DNA of 32,000 nt from Mycoplasmoides pneumoniae FH (GTDB lineage Bacteria; Bacillota_I; Bacilli_A; Mycoplasmatales; Mycoplasmoidaceae), in contig NZ_CP010546.1 in NCBI RefSeq assembly GCF_001272835.1, positions 722,809 to 754,808 of the forward strand. Direction: 5' to 3'. The translations under genes and the position numbers were made by a program. A model generated the notes under the pieces. The model was not told the origin of the DNA. It did not search any database and saw only the letters and a program-made list of their open reading frames with translations. This document shows, one piece after another, positions 10,877 through 17,339 of this stretch (its first letter is position 1; each line of letters opens with the position of its first letter).

Positions 10877-11008
10877 TTATTCTTTGCCAATTGTTTCCTT
10901 TGCTAATTTCTTTTTACGAGAGGCTGCTTTTCTTTTAATCATTCAACCAATGGCCGTGGCACCTAAAGCTAACACTCCAGCAATCGCTGATAAAGATCAG
11001 GTCAACAT
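10877..11008 (-). CDS. paralog A tail segment: 43-aa TM helix plus basic tail, in frame with the upstream segment
   Basis: Same frame as 11030-11977 and directly after its TAA. From ATG 11006-11008 it reads MLTWSLSAIAGVLALGATAIGWMIKRKAASRKKKLAKETIGKE. This mirrors the C-terminal anchor of paralog B. Independent expression is unproven. Confidence 0.35.
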
Positions 11009-11029
11009 CTGGTTAGTTTTAGCACTAGT

Positions 11030-11977
11030 TTAATCAGTGTCATCTTTATTGTCCAACTTTTCCAGTGCAAAGGCTTTGTTTTGGGTGTGGAAATCAAAGA
11101 CTGGTTTTTGTCTAAACTGGAAGTTGTTTTCCTTTAAGAATCTAGCTAGTTGTTGTGCTAGCTTAGTTTGACTGTCATTTTTAATGTTGAACCAAACTGA
11201 CTTTTCTAGACCATCTTTATTAATGAGATATAGCATTTGCTTATTTTGTGATAGCTTTAAGTCATAGTTAATTGCAAAAAGTCTTTGACTACCCAACATT
11301 GCTTGAATGGAGAGCTGACTAGTATAGCGATCAACATGGAACTCTAAGTTGAACTTTTGGTTGTTTTTTAAAACGGTTAAATAAGCCATTTTATTTACCG
11401 GATTCAACCTAGCATTCTTCGTTTCCACATGGAGGTTCATTTGACTCAAAACAATGTTGAGTTTTTCCAATAACACTTGTTCATCTTGCAAACTAAAGTC
11501 TGATTGAAACTCAAACTCATAGTCATCTATTAATTGGATGTTGGATGTTTCTATATCTAATTTGCCAATTTCGAATTCATCAAACATAAAGCTCACTGTT
11601 TGGGTTTCCAAGTGGGGTTTAAACCACAACTTTTGTTTGTCAAGCAACAGCTTGCGCGTATTAATTTTGAACAAGTAAGTGCGTGTGTTGGGCTTTATTT
11701 GATTTTGTTTAACAAAGTACATTTGCCCTTTTATAATTTCGGGATCGATCGTGGAACCTAACTTAAACAGTTCGTTGCTGTTGTGGATGTCGGCTAACAC
11801 ATAGAAGAAACCTTTGTTTTCGTTCATGTTTCCTAAATCAAGTTTGTATTGTCGGGGATCTTCCACAAAGGTTAAGCTGTTAGCATCTACATCTAACACG
11901 GTTTTATCAACACCAGCAAAACTGTTTTTAATGACAAAAACAATTTGTTGCTTTTCAAAATCATTGAGTTTTTCCAT
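11030..11977 (-). CDS. paralog A C-terminal segment (315 aa), unknown function
   Basis: ORF with ATG start and TAA stop. It is collinear with paralog B segment 14138-15172 (for example EIIKGQMYFVKQNQIKPNTRTYLF versus EIIKGQMYFLKKETKIPTIRTYLF). Confidence 0.6.
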   Translation of the reverse strand: MEKLNDFEKQQIVFVIKNSFAGVDKTVLDVDANSLTFVEDPRQYKLDLGNMNENKGFFYVLADIHNSNELFKLGSTIDPEIIKGQMYFVKQNQIKPNTRTYLFKINTRKLLLDKQKLWFKPHLETQTVSFMFDEFEIGKLDIETSNIQLIDDYEFEFQSDFSLQDEQVLLEKLNIVLSQMNLHVETKNARLNPVNKMAYLTVLKNNQKFNLEFHVDRYTSQLSIQAMLGSQRLFAINYDLKLSQNKQMLYLINKDGLEKSVWFNIKNDSQTKLAQQLARFLKENNFQFRQKPVFDFHTQNKAFALEKLDNKDDTD

Positions 11978-12043
11978 GCGTTGCTTTAACTCACCTACAC
12001 TAAAGCTTTTAATCGCTTTGTGTAACGGAACACTAAAGTCCTT

Positions 12044-14023
12044 TTATTTAAATTGCTGGTTGCTAAAGTTACTGCGATATTTAAATTTGTACTGGTAACC
12101 TTCTGGAATTTTGTTGATCGTTGGTAGGTTTTTCACTGCACCAAAAAGTTGATCAACTACTTGGAAGTGCAAGTTTTCTGATTCATAACCGTCAACAATA
12201 AAATCCAAACTTAAAAAGTTAATGGTGTATTCGTTGGAAGCGTGTTGTTGTGGTGTCAAGTATTTTTCTCAAGTTTTGATATCAAACACATTGACATTGT
12301 TTTTAAGCAACGTAATTTCTTGCAAGGTATCACCAATTTTGACTTTAGCTAAAAGTTTGGCTCGTGCAAAAATAGTTTGCAACATCTCTGGTAAGTTCCT
12401 AATGAAGATAAGGTGTTCTTTATTGGTAGGCTCCATCCCTAATAAGTCATAGAGGTACTGCAAGCTAGCAAAATTAACGTTGCTGTCCTTGGACTTTAAA
12501 GAGTCAAACTTTTGTAGCGCTGTTGCTTTATCAGTAGCTAAATCAATCTCTTCGTTCAACTTACTAATTTGGGCAATCGCTTGAGTAAACTCCTTTTTGA
12601 ACATTATTTGTAATTGATCTTTTTGAGATAGATCTTTTTCATTAAATGTTTTGGACAGAGTATCCACTACCGAATTAGGGTCAAATTGTAATTGTGAAAG
12701 TCACAACCTAGAAAGTTGACTAAAACTAATAGGTGGTTTTAGATCTGCATTATGTTGTTCCACATAAAAGTCAACACCAAAGCGCTGAGCGTTTACTGGG
12801 ATAATTGGGGTGTATTTGAAAATGTCCCACTTATTGCTAAACAAACTTTGTTCCTCATCATCAGTTAATGGCTTTACTACAACGTTTTTACCCATATTCA
12901 AGATTGATTGGGTTACTTGGCGGTTTCTAGTAAAGGCTTCCATGATCTTACGATCTTTAATTACCTTATCTTTAAAACCATTGGAACTACTTCAATATGC
13001 ATTTGCTTGCTTGTTATCAATGGAAAATACTCAAGTTTCTTTTGGTAATACTGGCTCATTCCACTGAACATTATCTTGTTCAAATACTCTAGGTGTTTTA
13101 ATTAACTCCACCTCTCAAAAAACACGATAAATGTAAATGGGAGTTGATTCCAACCACCAGTTATTTCAAAGAGTGGCAATGAAAATATTGTTTGGTCTAT
13201 CTTCAAAGAAACCATCATTTTGTGTTATTGCATAGGCATTAAAAATAATAAAGTAATTGCCATTTTTTCCTTGTTTAATTCACTTAGCATTTTGAACAAT
13301 GTCATTTATGTTAGGTGACTTAACTGATAAGGAACGGTTCATAAAACCGAAAAAAACATTAATCCATTTAAAGTCTTTATTTCTATTCCATACAGGACTA
13401 AATAGCCTTTGGGTTTCTAAGTTATAAGGAATAGATCATCCTGCGTTTTTAGCTTCTTCGGCAGTTCGACCAGCGCTTAATGTCACATATTTATCATGCT
13501 GTGGATACCACGGGTCATTAATGCGAGATGGTCCAAAACCAGACTTACTATCATTGTGAAAGTGGAAATACTGAAGGTCGTGTATATCTGATTTAAAGGA
13601 GTTTCTAACTCCGGGATAGCTAAAAGTTTTGTTCCATGCCAAACTGCTAGTATAGCTACTTTCAATGCCTAAGTTAACATCTTTGATGTAATAGATATTG
13701 TTATACCAATTAAAGTTATTTTCTCTAAGCAATTGGTTATACCGGTCATAATAGCCATCCGCTAGCTGAGTTCAAAGGGTGGAATAGTTTCAACCAAAAG
13801 TAGTTTTGTTATTTGGTTTATAAATTAAAGGATTTTCGAAATTAAAGTCTTTACGGAAATAACTATCCTTTAATTTGATCCCAACAGTAAACCCTTGATT
13901 GTGGTGTGCTGAGTTAGAAATATACAAACTACTATCAACAAGATTTTTATCCAACGACGCGTTCGCTAAAAGAGTTGGGAACGCAACAAAACCTAATAAA
14001 GGTAAATAATGATATGAGCGCAT
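12044..14023 (-). CDS. paralog A N-terminal segment (659 aa): signal peptide plus Trp-rich module plus conserved core; ends at an in-frame TAA
   Basis: Track ORFs 13790-14023, 13436-13732, 12701-12943, 12269-12667 and 12044-12259 all share one frame. I translated every gap and found only TGA codons. The ATG start gives MRSYHYLPLLGFVAFPTLLANAS, a signal-like N-terminus. Confidence 0.65.
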
Positions 14024-14075
14024 AATTAATTCACTTTTTCATCTATTAAATTGCTCAAAAAGGGAATTGACGCCA

Positions 14076-14169
14076 ATTTTTTAAAAGTTTTTATTTATCC
14101 GTTTTGACAACTGCTTTTTGTTATTTTTTAAAAGTTTTTATTTATCCGTTTTGACAACTGCTTTTTGTT
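14076..14169. repeat. perfect 47-bp tandem duplication (2 copies) spanning the stop codon and 3' end of paralog B
   Basis: The unit attttttaaaagtttttatttatccgttttgacaactgctttttgtt occurs at 14076-14122 and again at 14123-14169 with no mismatch. Confidence 0.95.
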
Positions 14170-15172
14170 TGTGCGATTTCAAACTCTTTTTGCGCTTGTA
14201 AAAGTAAAAACTAAAAGCAACTACCACTAAAAACAGACTACTAGCAGCAATTACTAAGTAACCAATAAAATTGGTGTTTTTATTTTCACCATTATTTGGT
14301 TGAGCCTGTTTGGCGATTTTAAAAGTTGCGGTATTATCCTGCAGTTTAAGCGGAATCTTTTCTTTTAAGTACATCTGCTTACTTTGAAGAAATAACTGCA
14401 AGGTATCGAGCAATTTAGCTTGGTATCGTTGATCAGCAACAGACCAGATATACATGCCTAAATGCTTGTTGCGGTTAACAAGTTGTAGAGTGTTTGAATT
14501 TTTAATCACTAGTTCATAATCCAACTTAAATAATGGTTGTTCGTCAACCTTAACAATTACATTAAGTTCACTAGCTTTTGGATTAAATTCAACATCAAAA
14601 TCAAACGATTGATCTATTGACTTTGTAGTGAGTCTTATTTGTTTGGGAAAAGTTTCTATGTTAGTAGCTTGTTCATCAACCATTAAGTTCATGCCAACTA
14701 ATGCAAGGTTCAGTCTTCTTATTAAAAGTTGCTTATCAGCTAACGTTAAGGTAGAAACCAAATCTACTTGGTAATCGTTAAAGAAAGCAACGTTAGGCAA
14801 TTTGGGATCAAATTGATCTAATTCAATCCCGTCTACAATTACCTTAACTTTGTCATTGTTAGCTTGAAATCAAACGTCATTGGCATTCAAAGCAATTTTG
14901 TGTGTTCTCATTTGAAACAAGTAAGTACGAATTGTTGGAATCTTTGTTTCTTTTTTGAGAAAGTACATCTGGCCTTTAATAATTTCCCGATTGGAATCTG
15001 TGCCTCATTTAAAGAAATTATTGCTGTTAGTAATTTCTGCTGCAATATAGAAGATGCCCGTTTTAGGATTTGTCGGAATTAAACCAGGAATTAGTTCTTC
15101 AGGATTTTTAACTAATTTGATTGAATTTAAGGCAACAGTTAATGCCGTATCATCCTGAAATGAAAAAACCAT
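14138..15172 (-). CDS. paralog B C-terminal segment (344 aa) with C-terminal TM anchor
   Basis: Track ORF 14138-14800 extends upstream in frame through 2 TGA codons (translated codon by codon, no TAA/TAG) to ATG 15170-15172, just after an in-frame TAA at 15179-15181. It ends ...FIGYLVIAASSLFLVVVAFSFYFYKRKKSLKSHKQKAVVKTDK. Confidence 0.6.
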
Positions 15173-16112
15173 TTTTAATTACAAAAGCTATTTGGTTTTT
15201 CTGCTCTTCAGTCAATTCTTTATCTTGGATGTCTAAAACGCTAAACTCCTTGCCGTTATTAACGACGGGAATGCTAAAACGATATTTATTGAAATACTGT
15301 TCGTTGTAATTTGAGCGAAACCTTAAACGGTATTGAATGCCCTGGTTTGTTTTTTGAATGGTTGGTTTATTTTTAGCAGATTCAAATAAAGAAAACACAG
15401 GTAAATTCTTCGCTGTTCAACTAGGATATTGATCTGATATGAAATCAAAAGAGAGAAATTCAACTTCAAATAAATTAATGCTAATTTGATCTAAATTTAA
15501 GAATTGTTCAAACTGGCCTAGATTAAAAACGTTATTGTTGTTTTTAACTAAAGTAATCTTTCTTAATTGCCCACCCATCCTAACTTGAAAGTTAATGGAT
15601 GCAGACTCAAAAATTGTTTTTAAAAGCCTTGGTAAATCACGAACAAGACTTAATTCTTGAGGATCCCTAAAATCAAAATTTAGCAGTTTATAAAGGTAGC
15701 TTAGGCGTTCTCATTGCTGTTTTCGTTCAACATTTTTAAGCGTTAAGAAATTTTGTAAAACTGTATTTTTATCAATTGCTTGATCAACTAACTGATTAAG
15801 CTCTGTAATTTCTTGAATCGCTAAGGTAAATTCCCTTTTAAAACGTAATTTCAAAAGAGCTTTTTGGCCAAGCGTTCGGTTATTAAAGGTGATAGAAGTA
15901 TTATCAACTATTGAATCAGGGTCAAACTCTAATTGAACTAAAATAATTCGCGATAGCTGATTGAACTGAATAGGTGATTGATTTTCGCTCTCTACTAAAT
16001 TTTTTGTTAAGTAAAACGAGCTGTCAATTACATGTGAATTGATAGTTGCGCTAGAGAGCAACAGTGGGGTTAATGAAAAACCCATTAATTTTCAATATTT
16101 CAAAAAAGGCAT
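15108..16112 (-). CDS. paralog B N-terminal segment (334 aa) with signal peptide; frame ends shortly after a T6 run
   Basis: Track ORFs 15711-16085 and 15150-15398 share a frame and join through TGA codons (gap translated). The frame extends upstream to ATG 16110-16112 (MPFLKYWKLMGFSLTPLLLSSATINS). That N-terminus aligns with the paralog A N-terminus. True stop is TAA at 15108-15110. Confidence 0.6.
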
Positions 16113-16197
16113 GGCAATCTTTACATTCAATAAATTGAACTAAAGTTTTTAACTTGCCAATTTTTAGAAAATTAGTGCTTTAAAGCTTTTTAAATTA

Positions 16198-17339
16198 CTA
16201 AGCTAATTGTTTGGAAAAGTGAGCAATCTTGCTAAAGATTAAATGGTAGTAATAATCCAATTGCTTTTTGCGCATTTCGATTTCAGCAGGAATACCTTCT
16301 ACTAAATCATTGCAAAGTTTTTCAAAGGCAAAGAGAATATCAGCAATCTTTTCTTGAATTTCTAGAGGTGGAAAAGAGAGTTCAATTTCAGCCATTACTT
16401 TTTGGCTTAGTTTTGGTCTTGAAGCTAGATTATGAACGAATTTTGGTGCTTCTATCTTTAATAAAAAGGATAGGAATTTGGTGCAGATTTTTTTATTTTT
16501 AACTTTTAAAACACCGCAATCTTGTGATGCATTAAACTTGCCATTACGATAAAAAACTACTCCAGCATAACCATTTGTAGTTCAAGTGATGTATTCACCA
16601 TCAAAGTCGCAATCTTTAATGCGTCCTAACTCACCATCATTTGTGGTAGCTGCGGAATAAACTGGATTTTCTCCAGGATTATTCCTAATATACGCTTTAG
16701 TGATCGCTCGACCTCTTCTAATTTCACAAATATCCTTTACTTGAAAAGTTTCGAAAGGTATATTTGCTCCGTAAATTTTTCGGATATTTTCTTGGTTGAG
16801 CAGATAATCGCGATAGAAGGCATACTGCTTCTTTCGCTCTCTTAGCTCGGCGCTTAGCTCGGCGCTTAGCTCGGCGCTTAGCTCGGCGCTTAGCTCGGAA
16901 AAGTATCTAAGATAGTAGCAATTTTCTCTTGAATTTGCAAAGGTGGGAAATCTAGCTCAATTTCTGCTAAAATTCCTTGCATTAATTTAGGAATAGGGCA
17001 AGCATAATTAACAAATTTAGGTGTTTCTAATCTAAGTGCATAAGCTAAAAACTTAGTATTAATTTCATCACTTTTTACCTTAAGAATTCCACAAACATTG
17101 GTTGCGTTAAATTGACCGTTACGATAAAAAACACTACCAGCTTGGGCTCCATCAGTTGTTCAAGTGACGTACTCTCCATTAAAATCACAATCCTTTATCT
17201 TACCGATTTCACCGTTATTAACTGTTGCTGATGAATAAACAGGGAATTCTCCTGGATTGTTTTTGATATATAGTTTGCTGATAACTCTACCGCGTTTAAT
17301 ATCGCAAATATCTTTGATTTTGAAACGTTTAATCAACAC
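16198..17339 (-). pseudogene. hsdS: type I restriction-modification specificity subunit (HsdS), two homologous TRDs, frame broken between the halves
   Basis: The N-half ORF (16890-17339, GTG start) reads ...FKIKDICDIKRGRVISK...ELDFPPLQIQEKIATILDTFPS*. The C-half is in another frame down to TAG 16198 and reads SELSAELSAELSAELSAELRERKKQY...FQVKDICEIRRGRAITK...ELSFPPLEIQEKIADILFAFEKL. No hsdM or hsdR lies adjacent. Confidence 0.8.
16841..16898. repeat. 12-bp tandem repeat (cttagctcggcg, 4 full copies plus a 10-nt partial), encoding (ELSA)n on the minus strand in the HsdS central region
   Basis: Direct reading gives cttagctcggcg at 16841, 16853, 16865 and 16877, then cttagctcgg at 16889-16898. 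Confidence 0.97.

What the first reader, a model, noticed from the sequence alone, without database searches (positions are those of the whole stretch)
11030..12046. Paralog A keeps one intact 1,048-codon frame interrupted only by two TAA codons
From ATG 14023 to TAA 10877 a single frame holds. It is interrupted only by TAA at 12044-12046 (…NQQFK*KDFSVP…) and TAA at 11030-11032 (…DNKDDTD*TSAKTNQ…).

Sequence after each stop is still homologous to paralog B, or still encodes the expected TM anchor (SLSAIAGVLALGATAIGWMIKRKAASRKKK). There are no frameshifts or further stops.

The first TAA aligns with the AAA-TAT (Lys-Tyr) region of paralog B, so a single base change explains it. An ATG follows each stop (11977 and 11008).

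I see three options:
- recent nonsense pseudogenisation;
- three separately translated products;
- low-level stop read-through giving a minor full-length anchored form.
Basis: partly seen in the sequence, partly recalled or inferred. Interest (0 to 1): 0.6.

Follow-up and report, generated by a model that had tools for sequence, protein, structure and literature searches.

The report
Decaying sigma-20 surface gene MPN612
The two in-frame TAA codons lie in the Mycoplasma pneumoniae gene MPN612: one is a strain-lineage nonsense mutation and the other is the species' normal stop that cut off an ancestral membrane anchor, so this is ordinary gene decay rather than read-through.

Summary
The minus-strand frame 14023 to 10877 has 1,048 codons, 12 TGA=Trp, and exactly two internal TAA codons (12044-12046 and 11030-11032).

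The window is Mycoplasma pneumoniae, a type-2, FH-like genome. Paralog A is MPN612, the ortholog of M. genitalium MG_414, which is an intact 1,036-aa protein of the sigma-20 (MG428/MPN626) regulon.

- **TAA at codon 660:** this is a lineage-specific GAA-to-TAA change. M129 and other type-1 genomes read Glu there and encode a 997-aa protein.
- **TAA at codon 998:** this is the annotated stop of MPN612. It is present in every allele I read. It separates an ancestral TM anchor that MG_414, MG_525, paralog B and distant relatives all keep fused.
- **Other lineages:** they carry different disabling mutations. One is a 1-nt deletion that creates TAG at codon 92. The other is a T7-to-T6 frameshift at codon 223, on top of TAA-660.
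- **Expression:** published data show the gene is non-essential, essentially untranscribed in culture, and seen by one low-confidence peptide.

Side result (post hoc): 4 of 13 sigma-20 regulon genes are split in this genome, against at most 7 of about 450 other genes.

The scan's earlier notes cover only this same window, not other DNA. Raw reads could not be checked.

The parts
14046..14076 (-). Sigma-20-type promoter of MPN612 (TTGGCG-N19-ATTTAA)
   Evidence: Read and found by pattern scan of the genome at G000 736884. It is identical to the motif that Torres-Puig et al. 2015 list for MPN612 (PMC4446450).
12047..14023 (-). MPN612 segment 1: codons 1-659, with a signal-like N-terminus and the Trp-rich N-terminal module
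   Evidence: Code-4 translation. It is 46-50% identical to MG_414. The same 659-aa product is on record in other type-2 assemblies.
13748..13750 (-). Codon 92 (TAT): site of a 1-nt deletion in other strains that creates TAG
   Evidence: L013 and L014 read GGCTATTA-GACC where the window reads GGCTATTATGACC. This gives the 91-aa plus 900-aa gene calls.
13350..13356 (-). T7 run (codons 222-224): site of a T7-to-T6 frameshift in another type-2 sub-lineage
   Evidence: L015 lacks one T. This gives the 238-aa plus 432-aa products also recorded for strain 309.
12044..12046 (-). First in-frame TAA (codon 660): lineage-specific nonsense mutation, GAA in type-1 strains
   Evidence: T in the window, L015 and L016. 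G in L013 and L014. The M129 protein P0008 reads ...QQFKEKDF....
11033..12043 (-). MPN612 segment 2: codons 661-997, still 47% identical to MG_414. It contains the 315-aa ORF starting at ATG 11977.
11030..11032 (-). Second TAA (codon 998): the normal stop of MPN612 in all M. pneumoniae alleles read. It separates the ancestral anchor.
   Evidence: All protein variants end ...DNKDDTD. The site is identical in the 5 genomes compared. MG_414, MG_525 and paralog B read through to a TM anchor here.
10877..11029 (-). Relic tail: 50 codons plus TAA. It includes the TM helix (about 10937-11005) and a Lys/Arg tail. Gene finders call it as a 43-aa ORF from ATG 11008.
   Evidence: The highest hydropathy window of the whole frame lies here.
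14138..16112 (-). Paralog B (MPN614 + MPN613, ortholog of MG_525). It is split by one extra T in a T-run at 15163-15168, in all 5 genomes compared.
   Evidence: M. genitalium MG_525 is an intact 664-aa ORF. There is no variation at the run in L013-L016.
16130..16160 (-). Sigma-20-type promoter of paralog B (TTGGCA-N19-ATTTAT)
   Evidence: It matches the motif listed for MPN614 in PMC4446450.

Best explanation
Paralog A is MPN612 of Mycoplasma pneumoniae, the ortholog of M. genitalium MG_414. MG_414 is a signal-peptide-bearing, C-terminally anchored surface protein of unknown function, transcribed from a sigma-20 (MG428/MPN626) promoter.

Shown: the ancestor of the M. pneumoniae genomes compared here had acquired a TAA at codon 998 that detached the TM anchor. 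That left a 997-aa anchorless ORF, the M129 state.

Shown: in the type-2 genomes read, which include this genome, a single G-to-T change turned Glu-660 (GAA) into TAA. Other lineages independently acquired a deletion creating TAG at codon 92, or a homopolymer frameshift at codon 223.

Inferred: the gene is dispensable and decaying. The downstream frame is still open only because the mutations are recent and the species is nearly clonal. The sequence after each stop is untranslated relic, not a read-through extension or a purposeful separate product.
For: - **Identity and orthology:**
- **Strain comparison:** 5 genomes differ at only 6 sites in the 3.1-kb gene. Three of those are disabling: a deletion at codon 92, a deletion at codon 223, and G/T at codon 660.
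- **Variant density:** the roughly 8 kb of pst/phoU/eno/atp genes downstream has 3 SNPs.
- **Allele records (contig counts in a redundant collection):**
  - 997/974-aa form, about 72 contigs
  - 900-aa form (codon-92 frameshift), about 309 contigs
  - 659/636-aa form, about 70 contigs
  - 238+432-aa form, about 80 contigs
- **Anchor is ancestral:** MG_414, MG_525, paralog B and weak relatives in other Mycoplasmoides all end in a TM helix plus basic tail within one ORF.
- **Comparative-omics paper (PMC4559472 supplements):** MPN612 is non-essential. It is listed among the few ORFs with strain-polymorphic frameshifts. It is 2993 nt in M129 against 1910 nt in FH. Its RNA level is about log2 -1 to 0.2, against 3-4.5 for pstS.
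- **Proteomics (PMC6385055 supplement):** one low-confidence peptide across the compiled MS runs.
- **Sigma-20 papers (PMC4446450; PMC6721554):** MG_414 is sigma-20 dependent. Its deletion has no recombination phenotype. Transposon mutants in MG_414 and MG_525 grow faster in vitro. Sigma-20 is not expressed in culture.
Against: - The 997-aa ORF is still intact in a minority of genomes, so the gene is not uniformly dead in the species.
- The sigma-20 promoter is conserved.
- The 50-codon tail after TAA-998 has no stop or indel. The chance of that is about 6% at this composition, by my estimate from base frequencies.
- Expression has been measured only where sigma-20 is off, so absence of protein in culture is weak evidence.
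- Too few substitutions exist within the species to measure dN/dS.
Confidence: 0.85

Rival explanations
1. Remodelled but functional gene. The anchorless 997-aa protein is the working M. pneumoniae form, secreted or peripherally bound. In type-2 strains the 659-aa N-terminal product, which carries the signal peptide, the A-specific Trp-rich module and part of the shared region, still does the job. The stops would then be domain-trimming events, not death.
For: The signal peptide and sigma-20 promoter are intact. The N-terminal module is 46% identical to MG_414. The 997-aa ORF persists in M129-type genomes.
Against: Two other lineages destroy the N-terminal part itself, with TAG at codon 92 and a frameshift at codon 223. 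The latter occurred in a genome that already had TAA-660. The paralog is frameshifted too. The AlphaFold model is too poor to say whether codon 660 lies at a domain border.
Confidence: 0.1
2. Low-level stop-codon read-through of one or both UAA codons yields a minor full-length, membrane-anchored 1,046-residue protein.
For: The frame stays open through both stops, and the tail still encodes a plausible TM anchor and stop-transfer sequence.
Against: TAA-660 is not conserved; it is GAA in other strains. Lineages with frameshifts could not make such a product. No extended product is on record. From general knowledge, UAA is the least leaky stop, and I know of no described programmed read-through in Mollicutes. 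Recent mutation in a near-clonal species explains the open frame.
Confidence: 0.03
3. The 43-aa ORF from ATG 11008 (TM helix plus basic tail) and/or the 315-aa ORF from ATG 11977 are translated on their own as new small or cytoplasmic proteins.
For: Gene finders call both ORFs in all assemblies. The FH annotation lists them as separate genes, for example MPNE_0713.
Against: The 43-aa sequence was not found in the held supplementary tables of the M. pneumoniae small-protein study (one file was cut when stored). The 315-aa ORF lacks a signal peptide although it is a piece of an extracellular protein. The whole locus is transcriptionally silent in culture.
Confidence: 0.04
4. Sequencing or assembly error at one or both TAA codons.
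For: None found.
Against: The same T at codon 660 is in independent complete genomes (L015 CP179180, L016 CP010548), and the resulting 659/315-aa products are recorded on many contigs. TAA-998 is in all five genomes.
Confidence: 0.01

Closest known systems
M. genitalium MG_414 (MG_RS02495), sigma-20 (MG428) regulon member
   Same: It is the ortholog, with 45-50% identity along the whole length. Synteny is the same (pstS downstream, the MG_525 paralog upstream). Both have a signal-like N-terminus and a sigma-20 promoter just upstream (PMC4446450, PMC6105099).
   Different: MG_414 is one uninterrupted 1,036-aa ORF with a fused C-terminal TM anchor. The window's gene has TAA at codons 660 and 998.
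MPN612 of M. pneumoniae M129 (997 aa, 'MG414 homolog', AAB95878.1)
   Same: It is the same gene, about 99% identical, with the same stop at codon 998 and the same relic tail architecture.
   Different: M129 reads GAA (Glu) at codon 660 and Ile at 768. The window reads TAA and Met.
Other lineage-specific truncated genes of M. pneumoniae (for example hsdS MPN365 and MPN615 truncated by premature stops in all type-2 strains; hsdR and arcA MPN304 frameshifted)
   Same: They are the same kind of event: point nonsense or homopolymer frameshift mutations that separate type-1 from type-2 strains or are fixed in the species (PMC4537597).
   Different: Here at least three independent hits fall in one gene, and the gene belongs to the sigma-20 regulon.
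Programmed stop-codon read-through (recoding)
   Same: The only shared feature is an open, homologous frame downstream of a stop.
   Different: The first stop is not conserved among strains. There is no evidence of an extended product. Frameshifted alleles exist in sister lineages.

Membership tests
MG_414/MG_525 family (sigma-20-regulated surface proteins of the M. pneumoniae/M. genitalium clade) | Collinear sequence homology to MG_414 over the whole length | tested here: met
   E = 0 and about 1e-258, with 46-50% identity in each segment. A HMMER scan of 1.84 billion representatives finds only 6 hits, so the family is very narrow.
MG_414/MG_525 family (sigma-20-regulated surface proteins of the M. 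pneumoniae/M. genitalium clade) | Conserved position between pstS and the MG_525 paralog | tested here: met
   pstS and pstCA lie downstream. The paralog lies upstream. The order is the same in M. genitalium.
MG_414/MG_525 family (sigma-20-regulated surface proteins of the M. pneumoniae/M. genitalium clade) | Sigma-20-type promoter (TTGGCR-N18/19-ATTYAW) within about 50 nt upstream of the start | tested here: met
   TTGGCG-N19-ATTTAA lies at 14076-14046, as listed for MPN612 in PMC4446450. Promoter activity in M. pneumoniae was not tested.
MG_414/MG_525 family (sigma-20-regulated surface proteins of the M. pneumoniae/M. genitalium clade) | Signal peptide and C-terminal TM anchor in one uninterrupted ORF | tested here: not met
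   TAA-998 separates the anchor in all M. pneumoniae alleles read, and TAA-660 splits this allele as well.
Decaying gene / polymorphic pseudogene | Disabling mutation relative to intact orthologs, with the sense codon still present in conspecific strains | tested here: met
   GAA in L013, L014 and M129 against TAA here.
Decaying gene / polymorphic pseudogene | Independent additional disabling mutations in related lineages | tested here: met
   A deletion giving TAG at codon 92 (L013, L014). A T7-to-T6 frameshift at codon 223 in a genome with TAA-660 (L015). MPN612 is also listed among frameshift-polymorphic ORFs in PMC4559472 table S8.
Decaying gene / polymorphic pseudogene | Dispensable and not expressed | tested here: inconclusive
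   The literature gives non-essential status, log2 RNA near 0 or below, and one low-confidence peptide. All of these data come from cultures where sigma-20 is off.
Decaying gene / polymorphic pseudogene | Relaxed selection on substitutions (dN/dS near 1) | tested here: inconclusive
   Apart from the disabling changes, the five genomes differ in the gene by only two missense changes (S466F, M768I) and one third-position change at codon 969 whose effect I did not check. A further missense variant, P277S, is recorded in other strains.
Programmed stop-codon read-through | Stop codon conserved across strains and species together with the downstream frame | tested here: not met
   TAA-660 is strain-specific. 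TAA-998 is conserved only within M. pneumoniae and is absent from MG_414.
Programmed stop-codon read-through | Extended protein product observed | not testable with these tools
   This needs targeted proteomics under sigma-20 induction. Existing MS data are essentially negative for the whole protein.

The most novel reading that the evidence does not exclude
The stops in MPN612 may be one symptom of a selective erosion of the membrane and secretion arm of the sigma-20 regulon in M. pneumoniae.

In this genome 4 of 13 regulon genes are split: the orthologs of MG_285, MG_390 (a C39-ABC exporter), MG_414 and MG_525. At most 7 of about 450 other genes are split. Sigma-20 itself, rrlA, recA, ruvA and ruvB stay intact. 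MPN612 alone has been hit at least three separate times within the species, in addition to the shared TAA-998.

If those four genes serve the sigma-20-dependent cell-to-cell DNA transfer seen in M. genitalium, their loss would explain why M. pneumoniae keeps recombination for antigenic variation but shows so little horizontal transfer. The repeated hits might then reflect selection for loss rather than neutral decay.
Probability: 0.25. Interest if true: 0.5.

Novelty: already known. Interest (0 to 1): 0.15.

Why it matters
On its own the finding matters little. It is a strain-level nonsense mutation plus an old truncation in a silent, non-essential gene. Both states are already in public annotations: 997 aa in M129, and split genes in FH.

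It is useful as a caution. An open, homologous frame after a stop codon in a near-clonal species says nothing about read-through.

The wider pattern may deserve a proper population-genomic test. MPN612 has been inactivated repeatedly, and split genes are over-represented in the sigma-20 regulon. The function of MG_414, MG_525, MG_285 and MG_390 is unknown, and so is the machinery of sigma-20-dependent DNA transfer in M. genitalium.

Tried and rejected
- **Table 11 translation:** it gives 14 internal stops. Code 4 is required.
- **Domain searches:** Pfam and NCBIfam find no domain in any piece of A or B.
- **Candidate paralog:** the 839-aa ORF at 23165-25684 is not a paralog.
- **Structure:** AlphaFold2 of MG_414 with a 7-row alignment gave mean pLDDT 51.5, with the N-terminal 430 residues below 50. 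Foldseek against PDB gave nothing better than E = 0.1. No fold assignment is possible, and I make no statement on whether codon 660 lies at a domain border.
- **Raw reads and RNA runs:** I saw no read-level check of the two codons and no RNA coverage.
- **M129-type DNA:** it could not be fetched, because the 997-aa protein came from the listing of cluster members, which the fetching tools do not accept. The GAA state rests on the M129 protein sequence and on the DNA of L013 and L014.
- **Genome-wide split-gene screen:** the first version was contaminated by spurious ORFs from rRNA regions, antisense frames and start-codon extensions. One example was a false flag on ruvA. It was redone with overlap resolution by bit score and manual curation. 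The background count of 7 is an upper bound that still includes multi-copy lipoprotein families.
- **Genome scan with the M. pneumoniae sigma-20 consensus:** it hits many repeat-family copies and is not specific on its own.
Full report
**1. Observation**

With the standard bacterial code the claimed frame has 14 internal stops. With table 4 (TGA=Trp) the minus-strand frame from ATG 14023 to TAA 10877 reads 1,048 codons. It has 12 TGA-encoded Trp and only two internal stops, both TAA. They lie at codon 660 (12046-12044) and codon 998 (11032-11030).

The ORF list under code 4 shows a 659-aa ORF (12044-14023) and a 315-aa ORF from ATG 11977. The ATG at 11008 is present.

**2. What the locus is**

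- The window lies at 722,809-754,808 of a single 817,207-bp contig.
- Exact and near-exact protein matches carry the source name Mycoplasmoides pneumoniae.
- Downstream of paralog A lie a PstS-like lipoprotein gene and a fused pstC/pstA gene.
- The only other cluster found for segment 1 is the 1,036-aa M. genitalium protein MG414 (47% identity, full coverage).
- A search of 41 related genomes finds a full-length intact ortholog only in the M. genitalium-like genome G009. Weak C-terminal matches occur in three other genomes of the genus.
- HMMER over 1.84 billion representative proteins returns six hits in all. The family is very narrow, and Pfam and NCBIfam know no domain in it.

Torres-Puig et al. 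equate MG_414 with MPN612 and MG_525 with MPN614 (PMC4446450). Paralog A is thus MPN612. Paralog B (14138-16112) is MPN614 plus MPN613.

**3. The first TAA is a lineage-specific nonsense mutation**

The 90%-identity cluster around the window's products holds several length variants:
- a 997-aa protein (M129 entry AAB95878.1, "MG414 homolog"), which reads ...NQQFKEKDFSVP... across the position of the first stop;
- 659/636-aa plus 315-aa products, which is the window's type;
- a 900-aa product starting at an internal TTG;
- 238-aa plus 432-aa products (strain 309 and others).

I fetched four other complete M. pneumoniae genomes through the identical PstS protein. I then aligned 5.6 kb and 15.2 kb of DNA. 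The gene differs among the five genomes at only six sites:
- codon 660, position 1: T in the window, L015 and L016; G (GAA, Glu) in L013 and L014;
- a 1-nt deletion in L013 and L014 that turns TAT-92 into TAG;
- a T7-to-T6 deletion at codon 223 in L015, which also has TAA-660;
- S466F;
- M768I;
- a third-position change at codon 969.

The roughly 8 kb of housekeeping genes downstream carries three SNPs.

The contig counts attached to the variants are rough and redundant, and only 15 of 42 members were listed. About 72 contigs carry the 997/974-aa ORF, about 309 the codon-92 frameshift, about 70 TAA-660 alone, and about 80 TAA-660 plus the codon-223 frameshift.

The supplement of Lluch-Senar et al. 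2015 gives MPN612 as 2993 nt in M129 but 1910 nt in FH (MPNE_0715). It lists I768M as a variant and includes MPN612 among the few ORFs with strain-polymorphic frameshifts. The FH gene MPNE_0713 carries an M86I variant, which corresponds to residue 768, so MPNE_0713 is the 315-aa ORF.

The window's state is therefore the known type-2 (FH-like) allele.

**4. The second TAA is the species' normal stop and removed an ancestral anchor**

Every M. pneumoniae variant ends ...DNKDDTD. The TAA and the following 50 codons are identical in all five genomes.

In a four-way alignment, MG_414, MG_525 and paralog B all continue in frame into a hydrophobic helix and a Lys/Arg tail. MPN612 has the same features only after the TAA. 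The strongest hydropathy window of the whole frame lies there. The weak relatives in other Mycoplasmoides genomes also end in a TM helix plus basic tail.

A fused anchor is thus ancestral, and TAA-998 is derived on the M. pneumoniae branch. Tail identity to MG_414 is low (14%), as expected for a TM segment.

At this base composition I estimate a 6% chance that 50 codons stay open. The species is nearly clonal, so the intact tail carries little information.

**5. Expression and dispensability (literature)**

- MG_414 is induced 6.6-fold to 15-fold by sigma-20 (MG428), from a mapped sigma-20 promoter. Its deletion does not affect recombination.
- Glass et al. found that transposon mutants in MG_414 or MG_525 grow faster in vitro (PMC4446450; PMC6105099).
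- The M. pneumoniae promoter versions listed in that paper are present in the window: TTGGCG-N19-ATTTAA at 14076-14046 and TTGGCA-N19-ATTTAT at 16160-16130.
- The sigma-20 gene itself (window 30013-30531, 172 aa, Sigma70_r4_2) is intact.
- Sigma-20 is not expressed under normal culture conditions in M. pneumoniae (PMC6721554).
- Accordingly, MPN612, MPN613 and MPN614 sit at log2 RNA values around -1.5 to 0.8 in all profiled strains, against 3-4.5 for pstS. MPN612 is scored non-essential.
- In the compiled M129 proteomics of Miravet-Verde et al., MPN612 (997 aa) is seen with one peptide at low confidence. The 43-aa tail sequence was not found in the held tables.

**6. Interpretation**

One of them arose in a genome that already had TAA-660.

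- **Read-through:** TAA-660 is not conserved, and frameshifted alleles cannot yield a full-length product.
- **Three purposeful products:** the 315-aa ORF would be a signal-less piece of an extracellular protein. The locus is silent in culture.
- **What I cannot exclude:** the 997-aa or 659-aa secreted products may retain some activity when sigma-20 fires. A small TM peptide may also be made. These are rated as minor rivals.

**7. Wider pattern (post hoc)**

Paralog B is frameshifted by one extra T in a T-run in all five genomes, while MG_525 is intact. The supplement of PMC4559472 also lists MPN571, the MG_390 ortholog, as frameshift-polymorphic. In this genome its ABC domain is split between two frames.

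I therefore compared all M. genitalium ORFs with this genome by tblastn under code 4.

- **Split in this genome (4 of 13 sigma-20 regulon protein genes):** the orthologs of MG_285, MG_390, MG_414 and MG_525.
- **Intact (9 of 13):** MG_010, rrlA, MG_286, recA, ruvA, ruvB, MG_389, pstS and sigma-20.
- **Background:** at most 7 of about 450 other ORFs of 100 aa or more are split.
- **Statistics:** one-sided Fisher p is about 8e-5, computed on 12 regulon genes before the intact sigma-20 gene was added. It is 2e-4 when the background is limited to equally diverged genes.

The test was conceived after seeing the pattern. It uses one genome and crude ORF calls, so it is a lead and not a result.

**8. 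Limits**

- Raw reads and RNA runs could not be searched.
- The structure model is of low confidence and found no fold match.
- M129-type DNA was not fetched. The GAA state rests on L013 and L014 DNA and on the M129 protein.

**Verdict**

This is an ordinary, already-annotated strain polymorphism plus an old truncation in a decaying gene. Interest is low.

Noticed in passing
G000:C1:483778-484811 (outside the window); G000:C1:687142-689117 = L017:1-1890: Two further sigma-20 regulon orthologs are frameshifted in this genome. The MG_285 ortholog (MPN404 region) changes frame near 484044. The MG_390 ortholog (MPN571, a C39-peptidase ABC exporter) changes frame near 687459, and its ABC domain is split between frames. 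Together with MPN612 and MPN613/614 this makes 4 of 13 regulon genes split, against at most 7 of about 450 others (post hoc Fisher p about 1e-4).
   Followed up: partly
window 15163-15168 (minus strand T-run) within paralog B, 14138-16112: Paralog B (MPN614 + MPN613) is split by one extra T in a T6 run. The state is the same in all five M. pneumoniae genomes compared. The M. genitalium ortholog MG_525 is an intact 664-aa ORF with a fused TM anchor.
   Followed up: yes
window 14076-14169: A perfect tandem duplication of about 47 bp covers the last codons and stop of paralog B and abuts the sigma-20 promoter of MPN612. No differences were seen there among the five genomes aligned.
   Followed up: partly
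window 16863-16899 (hsdS, MPN615): A 12-bp CCGAGCTAAGCG tandem repeat in hsdS varies in copy number: L013 lacks three units relative to the window. Xiao et al. 2015 (PMC4537597) describe it as a variable AELS repeat. That paper also says MPN615 is truncated by a premature stop in all type-2 strains.
   Followed up: partly
window 30013-30531 (+): The sigma-20 gene itself (MPN626 ortholog, 172 aa, Sigma70_r4_2 hit) lies in the same window and is intact. It sits about 16 kb from the two decaying regulon genes.
   Followed up: partly
G000-wide scan: The M. pneumoniae sigma-20 consensus TTGGCR-N18/19-ATTYAW matches about 40 places. Many share a nearly identical spacer (for example ...CTTCTCAATAAGCCGGTCAATTTAT), which suggests the motif is embedded in a repeated element family.
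   Followed up: no
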